Origin: Alphaproteobacteria bacterium | GTDB taxonomy: Bacteria; Pseudomonadota; Alphaproteobacteria; RF32; CAG-239 | Direction of reading: 5' to 3' | DNA length: 64,000 nt | NCBI GenBank assembly: GCA_017484225.1 | Contig: JAFUTN010000008.1 | Span: forward strand, 7,440-71,439 | Shown here: positions 50,127-55,160 of the stretch, piece by piece | Position numbering within the stretch: the stretch's first letter is position 1 | How the letters are laid out: each line of letters starts with the position of its first letter | The notes under the pieces: model-generated | Seen by the model: only the letters and a program-made list of their open reading frames with translations | Told to the model about the DNA's origin: nothing | Database searches by the model: none | Program-made: the position numbers and the translations under genes

Positions 50127-50174
50127 TCAGATTATCAGCAACACTCCGGCAGTGAGTATCAAATAAAGCAAAAT

Positions 50175-50222
50175 AAAAAAGCACCGAGAAATCGGTGCAA
50201 TACAAAAATGGAGCGGATGAGG
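50175..50222 (-). repeat. Direct repeat copy 1: terminator hairpin plus the last 14 nt of tRNA-Gly
   Basis: 48 nt, identical to 50353..50400 except for one position (A/G at 50202 vs 50380). Contains GCACCG-N6-CGGTGC and TGGAGCGGATGAGG. Confidence 0.9.
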
Positions 50223-50347
50223 GCGCGAACGAGAGAGCAGATACAAATTATCTGCGAACAGTGAGCGGTGCCGAGTTTCCGCAAGCATAAACGCGGGAGC
50301 GTGAAAAGCGCGCGGAGAAAACTCAAACCGGTATTCACCTCATCCAC
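50209..50347 (-). ncRNA. Candidate 139-nt tRNA-like RNA: tRNA-Gly-type acceptor stem and UCCA end, with a GC-rich unrelated core
   Basis: The 5' GTGGATGAGG pairs with the 3' CCTCATCCGC, followed by TCCA. There are internal hairpins (GCAGAT/ATCTGC; GAGTTT/AAACTC) and an intrinsic terminator. No D, anticodon or T arm could be drawn. Confidence 0.35.
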
Positions 50348-50352
50348 AAATA

Positions 50353-50400
50353 AAAAAAGCACCGAGAAATCGGTGCAATGCAAAAATGGAGCGGATGAGG
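50353..50400 (-). repeat. Direct repeat copy 2: terminator of tRNA-Gly plus the tRNA 3' end
   Basis: See copy 1. The repeat period is 178 nt. Confidence 0.9.
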
Positions 50401-50460
50401 GGAATTGAACCCCCGTTATAAGCTTGGGAAGCTTCTATTCTACCATTGAATTACATCCGC
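50387..50460 (-). tRNA. tRNA-Gly (anticodon CCC), CCA encoded
   Basis: Minus strand: GCGGATG TA ATTC-AATGGTAGA-ATAG; anticodon loop TTCCCAA; T arm GGGGG-TTCAATT-CCCCT; CATCCGC TCCA. Confidence 0.9.
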
Positions 50461-50562
50461 AAGTGCCATTACCGGATATATATACCGTTATTCTGTTTTA
50501 GGCAAGAATTTTTTTTGTATCCACAAATACACTTCTGCAATAAAAGTGGAACTAAAAAATAC

Positions 50563-50589
50563 TTGACATTCGCGCGGGGGGGGTAATGT
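50563..50589 (+). promoter_or_regulatory. Candidate promoter with a G8 tract in the spacer
   Basis: TTGACA (50563..50568), spacer TTCGCGC + GGGGGGGG (G8 at 50576..50583), TAATGT (50584..50589). The spacer is currently 15 nt. Confidence 0.45.
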
Positions 50590-50697
50590 AACTTTAGAAA
50601 TAATTTTTAGTTGTATACGCACATCACAATTTTTGATTGAGATTATGATGAGGGTTGCAATGCAGTGTTACTTGCAGTGTTAATCATTGGAAAACAG

Positions 50698-51636
50698 ATG
50701 AAAAGAGACCTTATATCCGTTGTTATCCCTGTGTATGGTGATAAAAAGCTGGTAAAAATATTATACGAAAAACTGGTGTCAGTGTTTTCGCGTATGCCGG
50801 TAGATTATGAAATTATAGAAGTATGTGACGCTTGTCCGTATGGTTCGGCTGACGAAATAAGAAAGTTGGCCAAAAAGGATAAGAGAGTTAAATTTATTAA
50901 TTTAAGCCGTAATTTTGGTCAGCACTTGGCAATTAAAGCCGGATTGGATTATGCCTCGGGAGATTATACCGTAGTAATGGATTGTGATTTGCAGGATAAT
51001 CCGGAAGATATTGTCCGCTTGTATAAAAAAATAAAGACAACAAAAGTTGATGTGGTGTTTGGTGAAAGAGAAAAAAGAGAAGATAGTTTTTTCAAAAAGA
51101 TATGTTCTAAGGCGGCACAATATTTGATTTACGGTTTGAGCGATTTTAGTCACTGTGATGCACGTGACCTGAGTAATTTATCCATTTTTTCAAAGAATGT
51201 ATTGAATGTTTTGAAAGAAGATACTGAGCCGTATTTTGTTTTCACCTACATAATACTGAGTTCGGGATTTGAGGCTGATTATATAACAATTTCGCAGGAA
51301 CAAAGGATGCTCGGTAAAAGCGGGTATAATTTTTTCAAAGGTGCTCGTCTTTTTTGTGAGGCATTAACGAGTAACTCTAATAAGCCGTTGATTTTTGCCG
51401 GAATGTGTTCCTTTTTAATGTTTGTTTTTTGCGGATTGTTTATTTTGAAACTGTTGTTTGATTATTTTGTTTTCGGGCAACGTTTGTTGGGGTGGACAAG
51501 TATTATGATTTCCATATTTTTTATTGCCGCATTGTTGTTTGCATATTTGGGCATATTGGGCGTTTATATCGGACAAATCTTCAAAATGTCACAAGGACGA
51601 AAAATTTATATGATAAAGGAAAAAGCAAATCTATGA
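50698..51636 (+). CDS. GT2 polyprenyl-phosphate glycosyltransferase (ArnC/GtrB/DPM1-like)
   Basis: ISVVIPVYG, DCDLQDNPEDI and two C-terminal TM helices. Trimmed to the ATG at 50698 (MKRDLISVV). Confidence 0.85.
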   Translation: MKRDLISVVIPVYGDKKLVKILYEKLVSVFSRMPVDYEIIEVCDACPYGSADEIRKLAKKDKRVKFINLSRNFGQHLAIKAGLDYASGDYTVVMDCDLQDNPEDIVRLYKKIKTTKVDVVFGEREKREDSFFKKICSKAAQYLIYGLSDFSHCDARDLSNLSIFSKNVLNVLKEDTEPYFVFTYIILSSGFEADYITISQEQRMLGKSGYNFFKGARLFCEALTSNSNKPLIFAGMCSFLMFVFCGLFILKLLFDYFVFGQRLLGWTSIMISIFFIAALLFAYLGILGVYIGQIFKMSQGRKIYMIKEKANL

Positions 51637-52019
51637 TTCAGGTTGGGTACTTATATTTGTTTTTGACCATTATAACAAGTGTCGCCTCGCAGATTATCGT
51701 CAAATGGCGAGTTTCCGGATTTGTGGTTGGTTTGCTGCCTATACCTGAAGGCGTAGTCGGTAAGATTTTGTTCTTATTTAAGGTTGTTTTTGATCCGTTT
51801 ATTTTTCTCGCACTTTGTCTGACTTTTATTTCCGGCTTGTGTTGGATGGCGACCATGGCAAAATTTGATATTAGCTATGCTTATCCTTTTACAATGTTAG
51901 GGTTTGTTGCCGTGCTTTTATTTTCGGCACTTTTGTTCGGTGAAGTTTTTAATGTGTATAAAATAATCGGTTGCGGATTGATTGTGCTCGGTGTTTTGGT
52001 AGTGAGCAAGGGAATGTGA
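51633..52019 (+). CDS. Small 4-TM DMT/SMR-like protein (ArnE/ArnF-like candidate flippase subunit)
   Basis: ATGA overlap with the GT2 stop. 128 aa. SVASQIIVKW and ISYAYPFTMLGFV...GCGLIVLGVLVV resemble ArnE as I recall it. Confidence 0.6.
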   Translation: MIQVGYLYLFLTIITSVASQIIVKWRVSGFVVGLLPIPEGVVGKILFLFKVVFDPFIFLALCLTFISGLCWMATMAKFDISYAYPFTMLGFVAVLLFSALLFGEVFNVYKIIGCGLIVLGVLVVSKGM

Positions 52020-52020
52020 A

Positions 52021-52743
52021 GTGGAAAACAAAGAGATAAAAAAAGTCGCTATACTGCAGTCAAATTATATTCCGTGGAAAGGATATTTTGATATTATTGA
52101 CCAAGTAGATGATTTTATATTTTTTGATAATATGCAGTATACAAAAAATGATTGGCGAAACCGTAATAAAATAAAAACAAAAAGAGGCGCTTTATGGCTT
52201 ACAATTCCTTGTGAAACAAAAGGACATATTATTGAAGGACGAAAAATATCGGAAACAAAAATTACAGATAAAAGATGGGCAAAAAAACATTGGAAAAGTA
52301 TTTGCAATGCTTACGCAAAAGCACCGTATTTCAAGGATTACAAAGCATATTTTGAAAAACTATACAAAGAATGTGAAAGTGAAGATTATTTGTGTCAGGT
52401 CAATTACAAATTTATTATTGCAATTCTGAAGTTGTTAAATATTAAAACCAAATTGCATTATGACAGAGATTATGAATTGATAGACGGTAAAACGGAGAGA
52501 TTAATTGATATGTTGCAAAAGGTTGGAGCCACACATTATTTATCCGGCCCGTCGGCAAAAGATTATATAGACGAAAAATTATTTGAAAAAGCCGGAATAG
52601 AACTATTATGGATGGATTATTCCGGTTATAAAGAATACCCGCAATTATTTCCTCCGTTTGAACATAATGTCAGTATCTTGGATTTAATATTTAATACCGG
52701 AGAAGATGCAATTAAATATATAAGGGAGAAGGATAATGTCTGA
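52021..52743 (+). CDS. WbqC-like family protein
   Basis: N-terminal ILQSNYIPWKGYFDII matches the characteristic WbqC family start (Q.NY.PW.GYFD.I). Confidence 0.7.
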   Translation: MENKEIKKVAILQSNYIPWKGYFDIIDQVDDFIFFDNMQYTKNDWRNRNKIKTKRGALWLTIPCETKGHIIEGRKISETKITDKRWAKKHWKSICNAYAKAPYFKDYKAYFEKLYKECESEDYLCQVNYKFIIAILKLLNIKTKLHYDRDYELIDGKTERLIDMLQKVGATHYLSGPSAKDYIDEKLFEKAGIELLWMDYSGYKEYPQLFPPFEHNVSILDLIFNTGEDAIKYIREKDNV

Positions 52744-53353
52744 TTTGGTAAAATATGCGCATAGGGCAAACATTCTATATGAGGAATTTGAGAAAAAGTA
52801 TAAAGATAATAATGTAGATTTTTTCAGCTGTTATGAGAATAATTTTAAGGATTGCGGTGATTGTGAGACTACATTTGAAGAAACATTTTTAAAAGTGTTA
52901 GGAAAATTGCATATTAAGTCTGATTGGAATTTTATGGATTGTGGGTGCGGATTGGGATTCCCAATGTATTTGGCCTCAAAAAAGTTTAAAAAGGTATATG
53001 GGGTTGAAATTATGCCTGAAATACTTGAAAAGGCAAAAGATAACTTAAATAAAATGAATGTCAAAAATTTTGAAATAATAAATTCAGATATAACGAATGT
53101 TGCTGAAAATATATTGCAAGAAATCAATGTGTTTTATATGTTTAACCCGTTTGTAGGCAATGTTTTTGAAAAATTTATCAGTAACGTCGTAAGGTGTTTG
53201 AATTCTAAAAAACAAAATGAAGTTTGGCTGATTTATGTTAATGCCGTTTGCGAAGACATCATGTTAAAGTATGCAGACGTTTTGCCATTGCAGTTTTGTT
53301 TACACGATTTCAGAAAAATAAATTTTTACCGTTATAAAAATACAGAGAAGTAA
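52736..53353 (+). CDS. Class I SAM-dependent methyltransferase
   Basis: Motif I FMDCGCGLGFP, followed by YGVEI. Confidence 0.7.
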   Translation: MSDLVKYAHRANILYEEFEKKYKDNNVDFFSCYENNFKDCGDCETTFEETFLKVLGKLHIKSDWNFMDCGCGLGFPMYLASKKFKKVYGVEIMPEILEKAKDNLNKMNVKNFEIINSDITNVAENILQEINVFYMFNPFVGNVFEKFISNVVRCLNSKKQNEVWLIYVNAVCEDIMLKYADVLPLQFCLHDFRKINFYRYKNTEK

Positions 53354-53396: not shown

Positions 53397-55160
53397 ATGG
53401 AAAATAATATGATAGCAAAATATTGGAGCTATATGCTCATAGCTTTGTTTTTGGCTGTTTGCGCCGGATATGTTGGGATAAACGGCGAAAATATCGTGAT
53501 TCAAATTTATGATAATTTAAACTCAAATATTGCTTGGCTGAAAATGCTTTCTGACAACAATTTATTTTTTAATTATCATGATAAGGTCCCATTTTTACAC
53601 GGACTTGACCGGATGTATTTGTATTCACCGCTTAAGGCGTATGTATGGCTGTATATGATTTTCCCGACATTTTGGGCGTTTGTTATCGGTTGGTTTTTGA
53701 AAATAATAATATCCGTTGCCGGATTTGTTTATTTAGGTAAGGCATTGAAGGTGGATGCGGATGATTTTAACAAAAACATAATTGCTTTTTGCGGATTTTT
53801 GTATGGTTTGACTCCAACGTTTCCGACCAGTGCATTTTGTTTTGCCTCGTTACCTTTTTTGCTGGGATTCTTAGTGCAGTATTGTAAAACCAAGAAGTTC
53901 AAATATAATTTGTATCTGTTGGCATATCCTATTTTTTCCGATTTTTGCTTTTTCGGAATTTTTGTTATGGGCTACATTGTTTTATTTGTTTTGATTGATT
54001 GGTGGATAAACAAAAAATTTAAGCTATATATGCTGTCTTCACTTGTTTGTTTGACAATAGGGTATGTTATATCGGAGTGGTCGCTGTTTTATGTGATGCT
54101 GTTTGCAGGTGAACCGAGTATCAGAGATGAGATTGCATCACCGATATTTTCTTTTGCCGATTGTGTGAAATATGCTGTATCCGTTTTTATTTACGGACAC
54201 TATCACTCGGCATCAGCCCACACATTTGTGGTGCTTCCCGTTTGTCTTTTATATTGGATTTATTTAATCATTAAAAAACGCACTAAAGTATGGCGTGATT
54301 TTTATTTTTGGATAGTGTTAATGCTATTTGTTAATGCCGCCATGTTTGGATTTAATTATGTTAAACCCGTAAGAGAGGCGTTGGAAGTTTTTGTTCCACC
54401 TCTTAAAGGTTTTGATTTTTCCAGATTTTTGTGGCTGAATGCTTTTTTGTGGTATTTGGCATTTTGCCTTGCTTTGTTGCGCATAAACATAAAATTCAAA
54501 TATATTGCCGATATGAAAATTTGTTTGTGTGTTTATGCCTTTATGGTTCTTGTTTGTGATGATTCTATCTACAATTTTGTGAAATATAACTATGATTATC
54601 AGACTACTAAAAATGAAAGTTTGGCCGTGCGGCAAGGTGTGCGCGGAGGAATAGAATGCTTTGATTATATTGAAACAAATCGCGAAGTTACGTATGCTCA
54701 GTTTTATTCGGAAAAACTTTTTAACCGGATTAAAAAGTCTATAAATTACGATAACGAATGGTCGGTGGCTTACGGGTTTCATCCGGCTGTGTTGCAATAT
54801 AACAATATCAGAACATTAGACGGTATGCTTACGTATTATCCTCTGAGTTATAAAAGAGAGTTTAGAAAAATGATTCGGCCCTTTTTGGAAGAAAATTATG
54901 ACCTCAGGCTTTTTTTTGACACGTGGGGCGGACAGGCGTATGTTTTTTCAAAAGATATACCGTATCAACTTGTAAATACCGATGACACAAAGGAGTCTGA
55001 TTTATTGCTTAATCCGGAAGTGTTTAAACAAATGGGCGGGAAATATATCTTTTCGCGTTTGAAACTGAGTAATGCAGATGAGCTGAAATTGACATTTGTT
55101 GATGTATTCAAAGATAATGAATCTCCGTATACGATTTATGTTTATAAAGCCGGAGATTAG
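53397..55160 (+). CDS. Large polytopic membrane protein (about 11 TM plus a ~190-aa C-terminal soluble domain), unknown family. Candidate GT-C-like transferase.
   Basis: The topology is inferred from hydrophobic stretches up to about residue 390, followed by a hydrophilic C-terminus. Last gene of the low-GC cluster. Confidence 0.5.
   Translation: MENNMIAKYWSYMLIALFLAVCAGYVGINGENIVIQIYDNLNSNIAWLKMLSDNNLFFNYHDKVPFLHGLDRMYLYSPLKAYVWLYMIFPTFWAFVIGWFLKIIISVAGFVYLGKALKVDADDFNKNIIAFCGFLYGLTPTFPTSAFCFASLPFLLGFLVQYCKTKKFKYNLYLLAYPIFSDFCFFGIFVMGYIVLFVLIDWWINKKFKLYMLSSLVCLTIGYVISEWSLFYVMLFAGEPSIRDEIASPIFSFADCVKYAVSVFIYGHYHSASAHTFVVLPVCLLYWIYLIIKKRTKVWRDFYFWIVLMLFVNAAMFGFNYVKPVREALEVFVPPLKGFDFSRFLWLNAFLWYLAFCLALLRINIKFKYIADMKICLCVYAFMVLVCDDSIYNFVKYNYDYQTTKNESLAVRQGVRGGIECFDYIETNREVTYAQFYSEKLFNRIKKSINYDNEWSVAYGFHPAVLQYNNIRTLDGMLTYYPLSYKREFRKMIRPFLEENYDLRLFFDTWGGQAYVFSKDIPYQLVNTDDTKESDLLLNPEVFKQMGGKYIFSRLKLSNADELKLTFVDVFKDNESPYTIYVYKAGD

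What the first reader, a model, noticed from the sequence alone, without database searches (positions are those of the whole stretch)
50563..50697. G8 homopolymer inside the promoter spacer of the glycan-modification operon: possible slipped-strand phase variation
The candidate promoter reads TTGACA (50563..50568), then TTCGCGC plus GGGGGGGG (50576..50583), then TAATGT (50584..50589). The spacer is 15 nt as sequenced, and gaining one or two G would give the preferred 16-17 nt.

This is the only G/C run of that length I found in this AT-rich window. It sits directly upstream of a surface-glycan modification cluster, the type of locus commonly controlled by poly-G/C length variation in other bacteria.

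The 5' UTR also contains a tandem direct repeat, TGCAGTGTTA-CT-TGCAGTGTTA (50661..50682), just before the SD. This could be a regulator binding site.
Basis: partly seen in the sequence, partly recalled or inferred. Interest (0 to 1): 0.6.

Follow-up and report, generated by a model that had tools for sequence, protein, structure and literature searches.

The report
Slippery poly-G promoter, glycan-modification operon
A run of eight G's sits between the two recognition boxes of the promoter of a surface-sugar modification operon in an uncultured gut or rumen alphaproteobacterium, and because its length differs between otherwise identical strains it is very probably a classical slippage-type expression switch, seen here in a group where it has not been described.

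Summary
TTGACA (50563-68), a 15-nt spacer ending in G8 (50576-83) and TAATGT (50584-89) lie 108 nt upstream of a five-gene operon.

- **Rarity:** the whole 1.48-Mb genome has only four G/C runs of 7 or more, against 26-41 expected. A second run sits in a look-alike promoter.
- **Length variation:** in ten other assemblies of this locus the tract is G9 (seven), G6 (one) or GGGTGGGGG (two). One G9 assembly matches the window over 8.7 kb except for this G and one other indel.
- **Spacing:** promoter-like sites in this genome prefer 17, then 16, then 18 nt; 15 nt is at background. G8 should therefore give a weak or off state, and G9 and G10 an on state.
- **Genus:** about 21 promoters in 15 of 50 species share ACTTGACA-N-G7-11-TAnnnT. 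Poly-C occurs only once in that position.
- **Operon:** it is Arn/Gtr-like, with an ArnC/GtrB-type GT2, an ArnE/F-like flippase, WbqC, a methyltransferase and a DUF6044 protein that I modelled as a GT-C fold.

The mechanism is known (Neisseria porA type), and this scan has met it before on other DNA, so this is a new member of a known kind. The 10-nt direct repeat in the leader is real but unremarkable.

The parts
50548..50562 (+). A-rich stretch (GGAACTAAAAAATAC) directly upstream of the -35 box; UP-element-like
   Evidence: Read from the sequence. The same A-rich stretch followed by ACTTGACA precedes every member of the genus-wide promoter family. Function is inferred.
50563..50568 (+). -35 hexamer TTGACA (perfect consensus)
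   Evidence: It is invariant in all 11 versions of the locus, including those whose GT2 protein is only 84-86% identical.
50569..50583 (+). Promoter spacer, 15 nt: TTCGCGC plus G8
   Evidence: The spacer is 16 nt in the seven G9 assemblies and in the two interrupted-tract assemblies, and 13 nt in the G6 assembly.
50576..50583 (+). G8 homopolymer, the variable element
   Evidence: It is the only G/C run of 7 or more in the window and one of four in the genome. Its length differs between near-identical assemblies.
50584..50589 (+). -10 hexamer TAATGT, directly abutting the G run
   Evidence: It reads TAATGT or TAAGGT in all versions, with T1, A2 and T6 kept. In the genus family the G run is almost always followed directly by TAAACT, TAAAAT or TAGnnT.
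50590..50697 (+). 5' leader of about 100 nt. It holds the conserved motif ATAATTTTTAGTTG (50600-50613) and the direct repeat TGCAGTGTTA-CT-TGCAGTGTTA (50661-50682)
   Evidence: The leader is almost identical in all strain versions. The motif is shared with two G-tract promoters of other genes in a sister species. The fold is not significant, z = -1.07. The repeat is one of four such repeats in the window. The transcription start is not mapped.
50698..51636 (+). Gene 1: GT2 polyprenyl-phosphate glycosyltransferase (ArnC/GtrB/PgfS-like), 312 aa
   Evidence: Pfam PF00535. Full-length matches to NCBIfam PgfS and ArnC. Matches to PDB 5EKP GtrB at 7e-35 and to ArnC 9HWJ at 5e-28.
51633..52019 (+). 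Gene 2: small membrane protein of 128 aa, ArnE/ArnF-like flippase candidate; its start overlaps the GT2 stop (ATGA)
   Evidence: Pfam EamA and SMR. NCBIfam ArnF 1.9e-8 and ArnE 4.8e-5, both below the curated cut-offs. The overlap was confirmed.
52021..52743 (+). Gene 3: WbqC-family protein, 240 aa
   Evidence: Pfam PF08889, 2e-79. Its biochemical role is unknown; a literature search gave nothing useful.
52736..53353 (+). Gene 4: SAM-dependent methyltransferase, 205 aa
   Evidence: Pfam Methyltransf_31/25/11. In other strains this slot holds an NAD-dependent epimerase or a PglD-like acetyltransferase.
53397..55160 (+). Gene 5: DUF6044 membrane protein, 587 aa, predicted GT-C-fold glycosyltransferase (the transferase position of an Arn/Gtr system)
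   Evidence: Pfam PF19510, 7e-139. AlphaFold2 model with pLDDT 92.9 and pTM 0.93. The ten best PDB matches are all GT-C enzymes (STT3, PglB, AftA), with probability 1.00 and TM 0.39-0.47. D39 is invariant in the first periplasmic loop.
50387..50460 (-). tRNA-Gly(CCC), divergent left boundary of the promoter region
   Evidence: ARAGORN and Rfam.

Best explanation
The G run is the length-variable part of the spacer of a sigma-70-type promoter: TTGACA, then TTCGCGC plus Gn, then TAATGT. This promoter drives a five-gene, Arn/Gtr-like operon for periplasmic modification of a surface glycan.

Slipped-strand mispairing during replication adds or removes G's. This changes the -35/-10 distance by one base at a time.

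- G9 (16 nt) and G10 (17 nt) fit the spacing this organism prefers.
- G8 (15 nt, the allele in this window) and G6 (13 nt) do not.

The population should therefore contain cells with high, low or no expression of the operon, and hence with or without the modification. Such variation would be useful against phages, host lectins or antibodies that read the cell surface.

Shown: the anatomy, the rarity of such runs, length polymorphism between near-identical assemblies, the preferred spacing in this genome, the recurrence of the design in the genus, and the nature of the operon.

Inferred: that this is the active promoter, that spacing controls its output, and that switching occurs within a population.
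For: - **Anatomy and rarity:**. There are four G/C runs of 7 or more in 1.48 Mb against 26-41 expected. Three of the four are intergenic and lie upstream of a glycan operon, a lipoprotein gene and a 1,799-aa exoprotein gene. The fourth encodes a Gly-Gly motif.
- **Length polymorphism at this locus:** G9 in L051, L052, L053, L056, L059, L060 and L192; G8 in the window; G6 in L061. L052 differs from the window over 8,723 nt only by this G and one T indel, and L053 by those two plus one substitution.
- **Interrupted tracts:** L057 and L058 carry GGGTGGGGG, the same total length as G9. Two sister-species promoters carry interrupted tracts; the one with a clear -10 (L191, G6AGG then TAGACT) has a 16-nt spacer, and the other (L189) fits 16 nt only with a poor -10 (GAAGGT). 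This points to 16 nt as a working spacing.
- **Spacing preference:** intergenic TTGAC[AT]-Nx-TAnnnT counts are 11 (x=15), 30 (16), 53 (17) and 18 (18). Counts inside coding sequence are flat.
- **Conservation:** the promoter and leader are nearly identical even where the GT2 protein has dropped to 84-86% identity.
- **Genus-wide family:** TTGACA-N3-10-G7 or more occurs at about 21 distinct loci in 15 of 50 species, and the reversed-pattern control gives 0.
- **Orthologous pairs:** tract length differs in 3 of 4 orthologous species pairs. One 2,171-nt alignment has a single gap, and it lies in the tract.
- **Operon function:**
Against: - There are no read-level data.
- Seven of nine uninterrupted alleles are G9, so the tract is not wildly variable at consensus level.
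- The sister promoter on contig C24 is G9 in all three assemblies seen.
- The transcription start is unmapped. A second -10-like AATAAT lies 9 nt downstream, although it becomes AGTAAT in two strains.
- The most common spacer in the genus family is 15 nt. That is odd unless most copies sit in a low state or the optimum for this promoter class is shorter than I infer.
- The G run also supplies a G at -14 (a partial extended -10) whatever its length. This could soften the on/off effect into a modest gradient.
Confidence: 0.72

Rival explanations
1. This is an ordinary fixed promoter that happens to have a G-rich spacer, inherited as part of a promoter family. Length differences between strains are rare, nearly neutral indels with little effect on expression, so there is no biological switch.
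For: G9 dominates, with 7 of 9 pure tracts. The C24 tract is invariant in three assemblies. The family is G-specific, with poly-C once against poly-G at about 21 loci. That fits shared ancestry or a sequence-specific role such as a G at -14. Interrupted tracts persist in some lineages.
Against: G/C runs of 7 or more are otherwise strongly purged from the genome, so their retention in promoters needs a reason. Indels concentrate in the tract while kilobases of flank are identical or free of gaps. The observed lengths span 13-16 nt at this locus and 12-19 nt in the family, a range over which sigma-70 promoters are known to change output strongly (established knowledge, for example the porA promoter).
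Confidence: 0.15
2. The G8 of this window is an assembly or sequencing miscall of a true G9. The tract is then stable in this species, and the apparent polymorphism is technical.
For: Homopolymer G runs are error-prone on short-read platforms. The only other difference from L052 over 8.7 kb is another single-base indel at 50307, which may hint at indel noise in one assembly. Reads could not be inspected.
Against: A G6 allele occurs in another assembly with its own SNPs. Orthologous tracts differ in 3 of 4 species pairs. Lengths from 7 to 11 occur in the family. Seven assemblies from several studies agree on G9, which shows that assemblers resolve this tract reproducibly.
Confidence: 0.08
3. 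The G run does not act through spacer length. It could be part of another signal: a regulator or nucleoid-protein site, a non-B DNA element, or the upstream part of a promoter that uses the downstream AATAAT (50599-50604) as its -10.
For: A conserved ATAATTTTTAGTTG motif lies downstream and is shared with two other G-tract promoters in a sister species. The strict G-strand bias is not required by a pure length switch.
Against: With AATAAT as the -10, the -35 position would fall inside GGGGGG, which is not a sigma-70 -35 box. AATAAT becomes AGTAAT in L057 and L058, losing the essential A at position 2. TTGACA is perfect and invariant, and the G run abuts a TAnnnT hexamer in nearly all family members.
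Confidence: 0.05

Closest known systems
Neisseria meningitidis porA promoter (poly-G between -35 and -10) and opc promoter (poly-C). From my own knowledge: van der Ende et al. 1995; Sarkari et al. 1994.
   Same: A homopolymer lies inside the -35/-10 spacer of a sigma-70 promoter. One-base slippage moves the spacer between about 15 and 17 nt. The target is a surface component. Strains differ in tract length.
   Different: The lineage is different: an uncultured, AT-rich gut or rumen alphaproteobacterium. The target is a five-gene glycan-modification operon, not a porin or adhesin gene. The tract directly abuts the -10 box. Expression levels per tract length are measured for porA but only inferred here.
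Treponema pallidum subfamily II tpr and tp0126 promoters (poly-G of variable length). From my own knowledge: Giacani et al. 2007.
   Same: Several promoters in one genome share a poly-G of about 7-12 nt near the -35/-10 region, and its length modulates transcription. This is a family of look-alike promoters, not a single locus.
   Different: The phylum and the genes controlled are different. The family here spans many species of a genus and drives unrelated genes (ankyrin, LRR, DnaJ-like, lipoprotein, exoprotein and glycan operon).
Phase-variable gtr (O-antigen glucosylation) operons of Salmonella enterica. From my own knowledge: Broadbent, Davies and van der Woude 2010.
   Same: The kind of operon is the same: a GtrB-type polyprenyl-phosphate glycosyltransferase, a flippase and a membrane transferase that modify a surface glycan. 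The outcome is the same: stochastic on/off expression.
   Different: The Salmonella switch is epigenetic (Dam methylation and OxyR binding), not a slippery homopolymer. The transferase here is DUF6044 (GT-C fold), and the operon carries WbqC and a methyltransferase.
ArnBCADTEF lipid A aminoarabinose pathway, and CsbB/GtcA/YfhO glycosylation of teichoic acids
   Same: An ArnC-like GT2, an ArnE/F-like small membrane protein and a GT-C-fold final transferase. Distant orthologous operons begin with a DegT/ArnB-type aminotransferase. NCBI names one DUF6044 homologue 'YfhO family'.
   Different: No ArnA or ArnD is present. There is no sequence match between DUF6044 and ArnT or any solved structure. 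The sugar and the acceptor are unknown. Arn is regulated by PmrAB/PhoPQ, not by phase variation.
Poly-G spacer promoters already reported by this scan on other DNA (e1-4928984, e1-3017212, e1-737985, e1-4570532, and e1-1207943 in a gut alphaproteobacterial prophage)
   Same: The design is the same (TTGACA, a G run, then the -10 box), and the type of evidence is the same (length differs between near-identical assemblies).
   Different: The genomes and target genes are different. This case controls an Arn/Gtr-like operon and belongs to a G-strand-specific promoter family spread across its genus.

Membership tests
Promoter-spacer homopolymer phase variation (porA/opc type) | A homopolymer of about 7 nt or more lies between a recognisable -35 and -10 hexamer | tested here: met
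   TTGACA, TTCGCGC plus G8, TAATGT at 50563-50589.
Promoter-spacer homopolymer phase variation (porA/opc type) | Tract length is polymorphic between otherwise near-identical sequences | tested here: met
   G6, G8 and G9 occur among 11 versions of the locus. The window and L052 differ over 8,723 nt only by the tract and one other indel.
Promoter-spacer homopolymer phase variation (porA/opc type) | The length changes move the spacer across the organism's optimum | tested here: met
   Intergenic promoter-like sites peak at 17 nt, then 16, then 18, and 15 nt is at background. G8 gives 15 nt, G9 gives 16 and G10 gives 17. This is a statistical inference, not a measurement of activity.
Promoter-spacer homopolymer phase variation (porA/opc type) | Mixed tract lengths occur within one population (reversible, high-frequency switching) | not testable with these tools
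Promoter-spacer homopolymer phase variation (porA/opc type) | Transcription starts at this promoter, and output depends on tract length | not testable with these tools
   No RNA data and no reporter assay were available. The promoter is supported only by consensus, conservation and recurrence in the genus.
Three-component periplasmic glycosylation system (Gtr / Arn / CsbB-GtcA-YfhO type) | A GT2 polyprenyl-phosphate glycosyltransferase with a C-terminal membrane anchor | tested here: met
   Full-length matches to GtrB (5EKP, 7e-35), ArnC (9HWJ, 5e-28) and PgfS.
Three-component periplasmic glycosylation system (Gtr / Arn / CsbB-GtcA-YfhO type) | A small membrane flippase for the lipid-linked sugar | tested here: inconclusive
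   The 128-aa protein matches EamA and SMR, and ArnF at 1.9e-8 and ArnE at 4.8e-5, all below the curated cut-offs. Position and translational coupling fit this role.
Three-component periplasmic glycosylation system (Gtr / Arn / CsbB-GtcA-YfhO type) | A polytopic GT-C-fold transferase acting on the outer face of the membrane | tested here: met
   The DUF6044 model has pLDDT 92.9. The ten best PDB matches are all GT-C enzymes, with probability 1.00 and TM 0.39-0.47. There is an invariant Asp in the first loop. No sequence-level match to solved structures was found.
Three-component periplasmic glycosylation system (Gtr / Arn / CsbB-GtcA-YfhO type) | An identified sugar donor and surface acceptor | not testable with these tools
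   Only hints exist: a DegT aminotransferase heads distant orthologous operons, which suggests an amino sugar. The lpxI and lpxB genes lie 2-4 kb upstream.

The most novel reading that the evidence does not exclude
The G8 promoter may be one member of a genus-wide, G-strand-specific promoter cassette (A-tract, ACTTGACA, 5-9 nt, G7-11, TAnnnT) that has spread to unrelated genes. These include ankyrin, LRR, DnaJ-like and coiled-coil effector-like proteins, lipoproteins, giant exoproteins and this glycan operon.

Together these promoters would form a 'phasome' that lets uncultured gut and rumen Alphaproteobacteria shuffle their host- or phage-facing repertoire at random. The G run would also serve as a partial extended -10 (G at -14), which would explain why poly-C is almost never used.
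Probability: 0.4. Interest if true: 0.55.

Novelty: new member of a known kind. Interest (0 to 1): 0.4.

Why it matters
If the switch works as inferred, this uncultured commensal varies a surface-glycan modification at random from cell to cell. That would affect phage adsorption, host immune recognition and strain coexistence in the gut or rumen.

It would also mean that consensus metagenome assemblies hide functionally different subpopulations. The window's G8 allele would be a low or off state of an operon that most sampled strains carry in the G9 state.

The genus-wide family gives a ready list of candidate contingency genes in a lineage with no cultured model. It also extends promoter-spacer slippage, known mainly from pathogens, to commensal Alphaproteobacteria. 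The mechanism itself is not new.

Tried and rejected
- **JGI metagenomes:** a scan with a locus-specific pattern found nothing. I did not use the second scan that was then allowed.
- **Exact-protein look-ups:** the 312-aa GT2 and the C24 lipoprotein were not on record. I reached the loci through WbqC, the 323-aa GT2 version, GT2 relatives and a neighbouring CNNM/CorC gene.
- **Hidden duplicates:** 'similar places not shown' could not be displayed, so the allele tally covers only 11 versions of the locus.
- **Invertible promoter in distant relatives:** a resolvase gene lies upstream of the operon in L185 and L186. I found no convincing flanking inverted repeats, so I dropped this idea.
- **Distant orthologues:** operons whose GT2 is 69-71% identical have a different promoter with no G run. 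The poly-G promoter is therefore lineage-specific, not ancestral to the operon.
- **Structured leader or riboswitch:** rejected. The fold z-score is -1.07, and Rfam found only tRNAs in the window.
- **Leader peptide:** a seven-codon upstream ORF MQCYLQC (50660-50683), built from the direct repeat, has a good Shine-Dalgarno sequence. It is cut to M-stop in L057 and L061, so I rejected it.
- **Direct repeat as an operator:** there is no support. It is one of four such repeats in the window, and its first copy varies between strains.
- **WbqC literature:** the search gave nothing useful. A literature search on homopolymeric promoter-spacer phase variation in metagenomes found no report for this lineage.
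- **Scanner miss:** the simple promoter scan did not list this promoter, because it only accepts 16-18-nt spacers.

Full report
**1. The observation**

The spacer is 15 nt.

G8 is the only G/C run of 7 or more in the 64-kb window; the next longest is one C6. I laid the whole genome (1,483,735 bases, 57 contigs, 39.1% GC) in the Python box. It holds only four G/C runs of 7 or more. An iid model expects about 26 and a first-order Markov model about 41. Long G/C runs are therefore purged from this genome, and the few that remain need an explanation.

The other three runs are these:
- A G7 inside a coding Gly-Gly motif of a tsaD-like gene.
- A G9 (C9 on the gene's sense strand) 77 nt upstream of the start of a 1,799-aa exoprotein gene.
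- A G9 in a promoter of the same build as ours: AATACTTGACA-AAAATCGC-G9-TAAACT, with a 17-nt spacer, 33 nt upstream of a lipoprotein gene.

**2. Is the tract variable?**

Instead I fetched other public assemblies of the same locus through exact-protein look-ups. Eleven versions of the promoter are now in hand:

| Tract | Number | Loci |
|---|---|---|
| G9 | 7 | L051, L052, L053, L056, L059, L060, L192 |
| G8 | 1 | the window |
| G6 | 1 | L061 |
| GGGTGGGGG, with -10 TAAGGT | 2 | L057, L058 |

L052 aligns to the window over 8,723 nt with no mismatch and two single-base indels: the extra G, and a T at 50307. L053 aligns over 6,493 nt with one mismatch and the same two indels. The tract is therefore one of very few differences between near-identical strains.

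The interrupted alleles have the same total length as G9. This is what one expects if a 16-nt spacer works and a point mutation has locked it.

**3. Which length is 'on'?**

I counted TTGAC[A/T]-Nx-TAnnnT sites (at least 4 of 6 matches to TATAAT) in crude intergenic DNA of this genome.

| Spacer x (nt) | Intergenic sites |
|---|---|
| 15 | 11 |
| 16 | 30 |
| 17 | 53 |
| 18 | 18 |

Most other intergenic spacings give 8-20 (x=12 gives 26), and counts inside coding sequence are flat at about 32-52. The organism thus prefers 17, then 16, then 18 nt.

G10 would be optimal and G9 good. G8, the window's allele, falls to background, and G6 is far off. This part is inference from statistics, not a measurement of promoter activity.

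**4. Is it the promoter?**

There is no mapped transcription start. The indirect support is as follows.
- The -35 box is a perfect consensus and is invariant in all versions.
- The -10 box keeps T1, A2 and T6 in all versions.
- The promoter and the roughly 100-nt leader are nearly identical even in strains whose GT2 protein is only 84-86% identical.
- Substitutions cluster just downstream of the -10 box.
- A competing -10-like AATAAT (50599-50604) becomes AGTAAT in two strains, and its -35 position would fall inside the G run. It is therefore unlikely to be the promoter.

The simple promoter scan did not list the site, only because it demands 16-18-nt spacers.

**5. A promoter family in the genus**

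A pattern scan of the 50 species genomes of the genus for TTGACA-N3-10-G7 or more found matches in 15 genomes. The reversed-pattern control gave zero everywhere. De-duplicated, these are about 21 loci with the consensus A-tract, ACTTGACA, AAAAATC, G7-11, TAAACTGAAAG.

Spacers run from 12 to 19 nt, most often 15. The genes behind these promoters are unrelated to each other: ankyrin-repeat, LRR, DnaJ-like and coiled-coil proteins, lipoproteins and large exoproteins.

In 3 of 4 orthologous species pairs (87-98% DNA identity) the tract length differs. In one 2,171-nt alignment the only gap lies in the tract.

The same search with poly-C gave one hit in 50 genomes, so the family is G-specific on the non-template strand. 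That suggests shared ancestry of the cassette, or a role for G itself. For example, the G run always supplies a G at -14, part of an extended -10 element; this is my inference.

Most of the G8-or-longer runs listed for the genus are followed directly by TA and a -10-like hexamer.

Two promoters in a sister species carry interrupted tracts: G5AG4 followed by AAGG (L189), and G6AGG (L191). L191 has a 16-nt spacer before TAGACT; L189 fits 16 nt only if the poor GAAGGT is taken as its -10 box, and otherwise has 21 nt before TAAAAT. Both share the leader motif ATAATTTTTAGTTG with ours.

Matches came from many phyla, including several rumen and gut Alphaproteobacteria MAGs, so the design is widespread.

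**6. The operon**

The five genes are tightly packed, with an ATGA overlap, a 1-nt gap, an 8-nt overlap and a 43-nt gap.

| Gene | Coordinates | Assignment | Evidence |
|---|---|---|---|
| 1 | 50698-51636 | GT2, full-length match to GtrB (5EKP, 7e-35), ArnC (9HWJ, 5e-28) and PgfS | |
| 2 | 51633-52019 | 128-aa EamA/SMR-like protein, weakest-but-best match to ArnF/ArnE | |
| 3 | 52021-52743 | WbqC family | |
| 4 | 52736-53353 | SAM-dependent methyltransferase | |
| 5 | 53397-55160 | DUF6044, 587-aa membrane protein | |

For gene 5 I built a 57-sequence alignment and an AlphaFold2 model with pLDDT 92.9 and pTM 0.93. Its ten best PDB matches are all GT-C glycosyltransferases (STT3, PglB, AftA), with probability 1.00 and TM 0.39-0.47. 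Sequence search against solved structures found nothing.

The operon is therefore an Arn/Gtr/CsbB-YfhO-type system: make a polyprenyl-phosphate sugar, flip it, and transfer it to a surface acceptor outside the membrane.

Other observations on the operon:
- It has 33.8% GC against 40-42% in the flanks.
- Its gene content is mosaic between strains. The methyltransferase slot holds an epimerase or a PglD-like acetyltransferase elsewhere.
- More distant orthologues begin with a DegT/ArnB-type aminotransferase, which hints at an amino sugar.
- Those distant orthologues have a different promoter without a G run, so the poly-G promoter is specific to this lineage.

**7. The direct repeat in the leader**

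TGCAGTGTTA-CT-TGCAGTGTTA (50661-50682) is present as described.
- It is one of four comparable repeats in the window, against about 0.8 in simulations.
- Its first copy varies between strains (TGCGG in L051, TGTAG in L057 and L061), while the second copy is constant.
- It overlaps the alternative GTG start at 50665 that gene callers prefer. It also encodes a seven-codon upstream ORF that is not conserved.
- The leader has no significant fold, z = -1.07, and no Rfam match.

I find no evidence that the repeat is a regulator site.

**8. Comparison with what is known**

Mechanistically this is the porA/opc type of promoter-spacer slippage, also known from Treponema pallidum tpr promoters (my own knowledge). 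Functionally it parallels the phase-variable gtr operons of Salmonella, which use a Dam/OxyR epigenetic switch instead (my own knowledge).

This scan has already reported look-alike poly-G spacer promoters on other DNA, including one on a prophage of a gut alphaproteobacterium. Other notes on this same window describe the operon as Arn/Gtr-like and the repeat beside tRNA-Gly. My tests agree with the first of these. A literature search found no description for this lineage.

**9. Verdict**

Three things are still unproven: population-level switching, the transcription start and the effect on expression.

It is a new member of a known kind. The window's own allele (G8, 15 nt) is predicted to be the weak or off state of an operon that most sampled strains carry as G9.

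| Reading | Confidence |
|---|---|
| Slippage switch or dimmer | about 0.72 |
| Fixed promoter with near-neutral indels | about 0.15 |
| Technical miscall of G8 | about 0.08 |
| Other signal | about 0.05 |

Interest is 0.4.

Noticed in passing
G000:C24:76217-76245 (outside the window; locus L041): A second promoter of the same build: AATACTTGACA-AAAATCGC-G9-TAAACT, with a 17-nt spacer, 33 nt upstream of a 217-aa lipoprotein gene. The tract is G9 in two other assemblies as well (L062, L063).
   Followed up: partly
G000:C2:10903-10911 (outside the window): A G9 (C9 on the gene's sense strand) lies 77 nt upstream of the start of a 1,799-aa exoprotein gene (MKYSKTALGLLNAQYRSVLRKC...). I could not place a clear -35/-10 pair around it. 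Orthologous genes in other species carry TTGACA-N-G9/10 or an interrupted G6AGG promoter (L023, L040, L191).
   Followed up: partly
Genus-wide loci L021-L050: A promoter cassette (A-tract, ACTTGACA, AAAAATC, G7-11, TAAACTGAAAG) stands in front of unrelated genes in 15 of 50 species: ankyrin, LRR, DnaJ-like and coiled-coil proteins, and lipoproteins. Poly-C in the same position occurs only once, so the cassette is strictly G on the non-template strand.
   Followed up: partly
window 50307: This is the only other difference between the window and the assemblies L052 and L053 over 6.5-8.7 kb. The window lacks a single T (GAAAA-GCGCG against GAAAATGCGCG). The site is in the intergenic repeat region left of tRNA-Gly and is not in a homopolymer of T.
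   Followed up: no
window 50127-50460; loci L051 and L056: The 3' end of tRNA-Gly(CCC) and its terminator are partly duplicated (50181-50225 against 50359-50403). L056 loses similarity to the window exactly at the tRNA 3' end (50387). L051 carries about 675 extra bases with two small ORFs between comEC and the tRNA. The tRNA 3' side is thus a variable junction.
   Followed up: no
window 52736-53353; loci L057, L058, L059, L192, L185-L188: The operon is mosaic between strains. The methyltransferase slot is replaced by an NAD-dependent epimerase or a PglD-like acetyltransferase. Distant orthologues start with a DegT aminotransferase, and in L185 and L186 a resolvase gene lies upstream. The operon has 33.8% GC against 40-42% in its flanks.
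   Followed up: partly
window 50660-50683: The direct repeat forms a seven-codon upstream ORF, ATG-CAG-TGT-TAC-TTG-CAG-TGT-TAA (MQCYLQC), with a GAGGG Shine-Dalgarno sequence 5 nt upstream. It is cut to M-stop in L057 and L061, so it is probably not functional.
   Followed up: yes
G000:C2:11040-11300 (outside the window): There are tandem, imperfect repeats of about 55 nt (GTCATTGCGAGGGAGTGAAACGACCGTAAGGTAGGAAAC...) just beyond the C2 G tract. Their nature is unknown.
   Followed up: no
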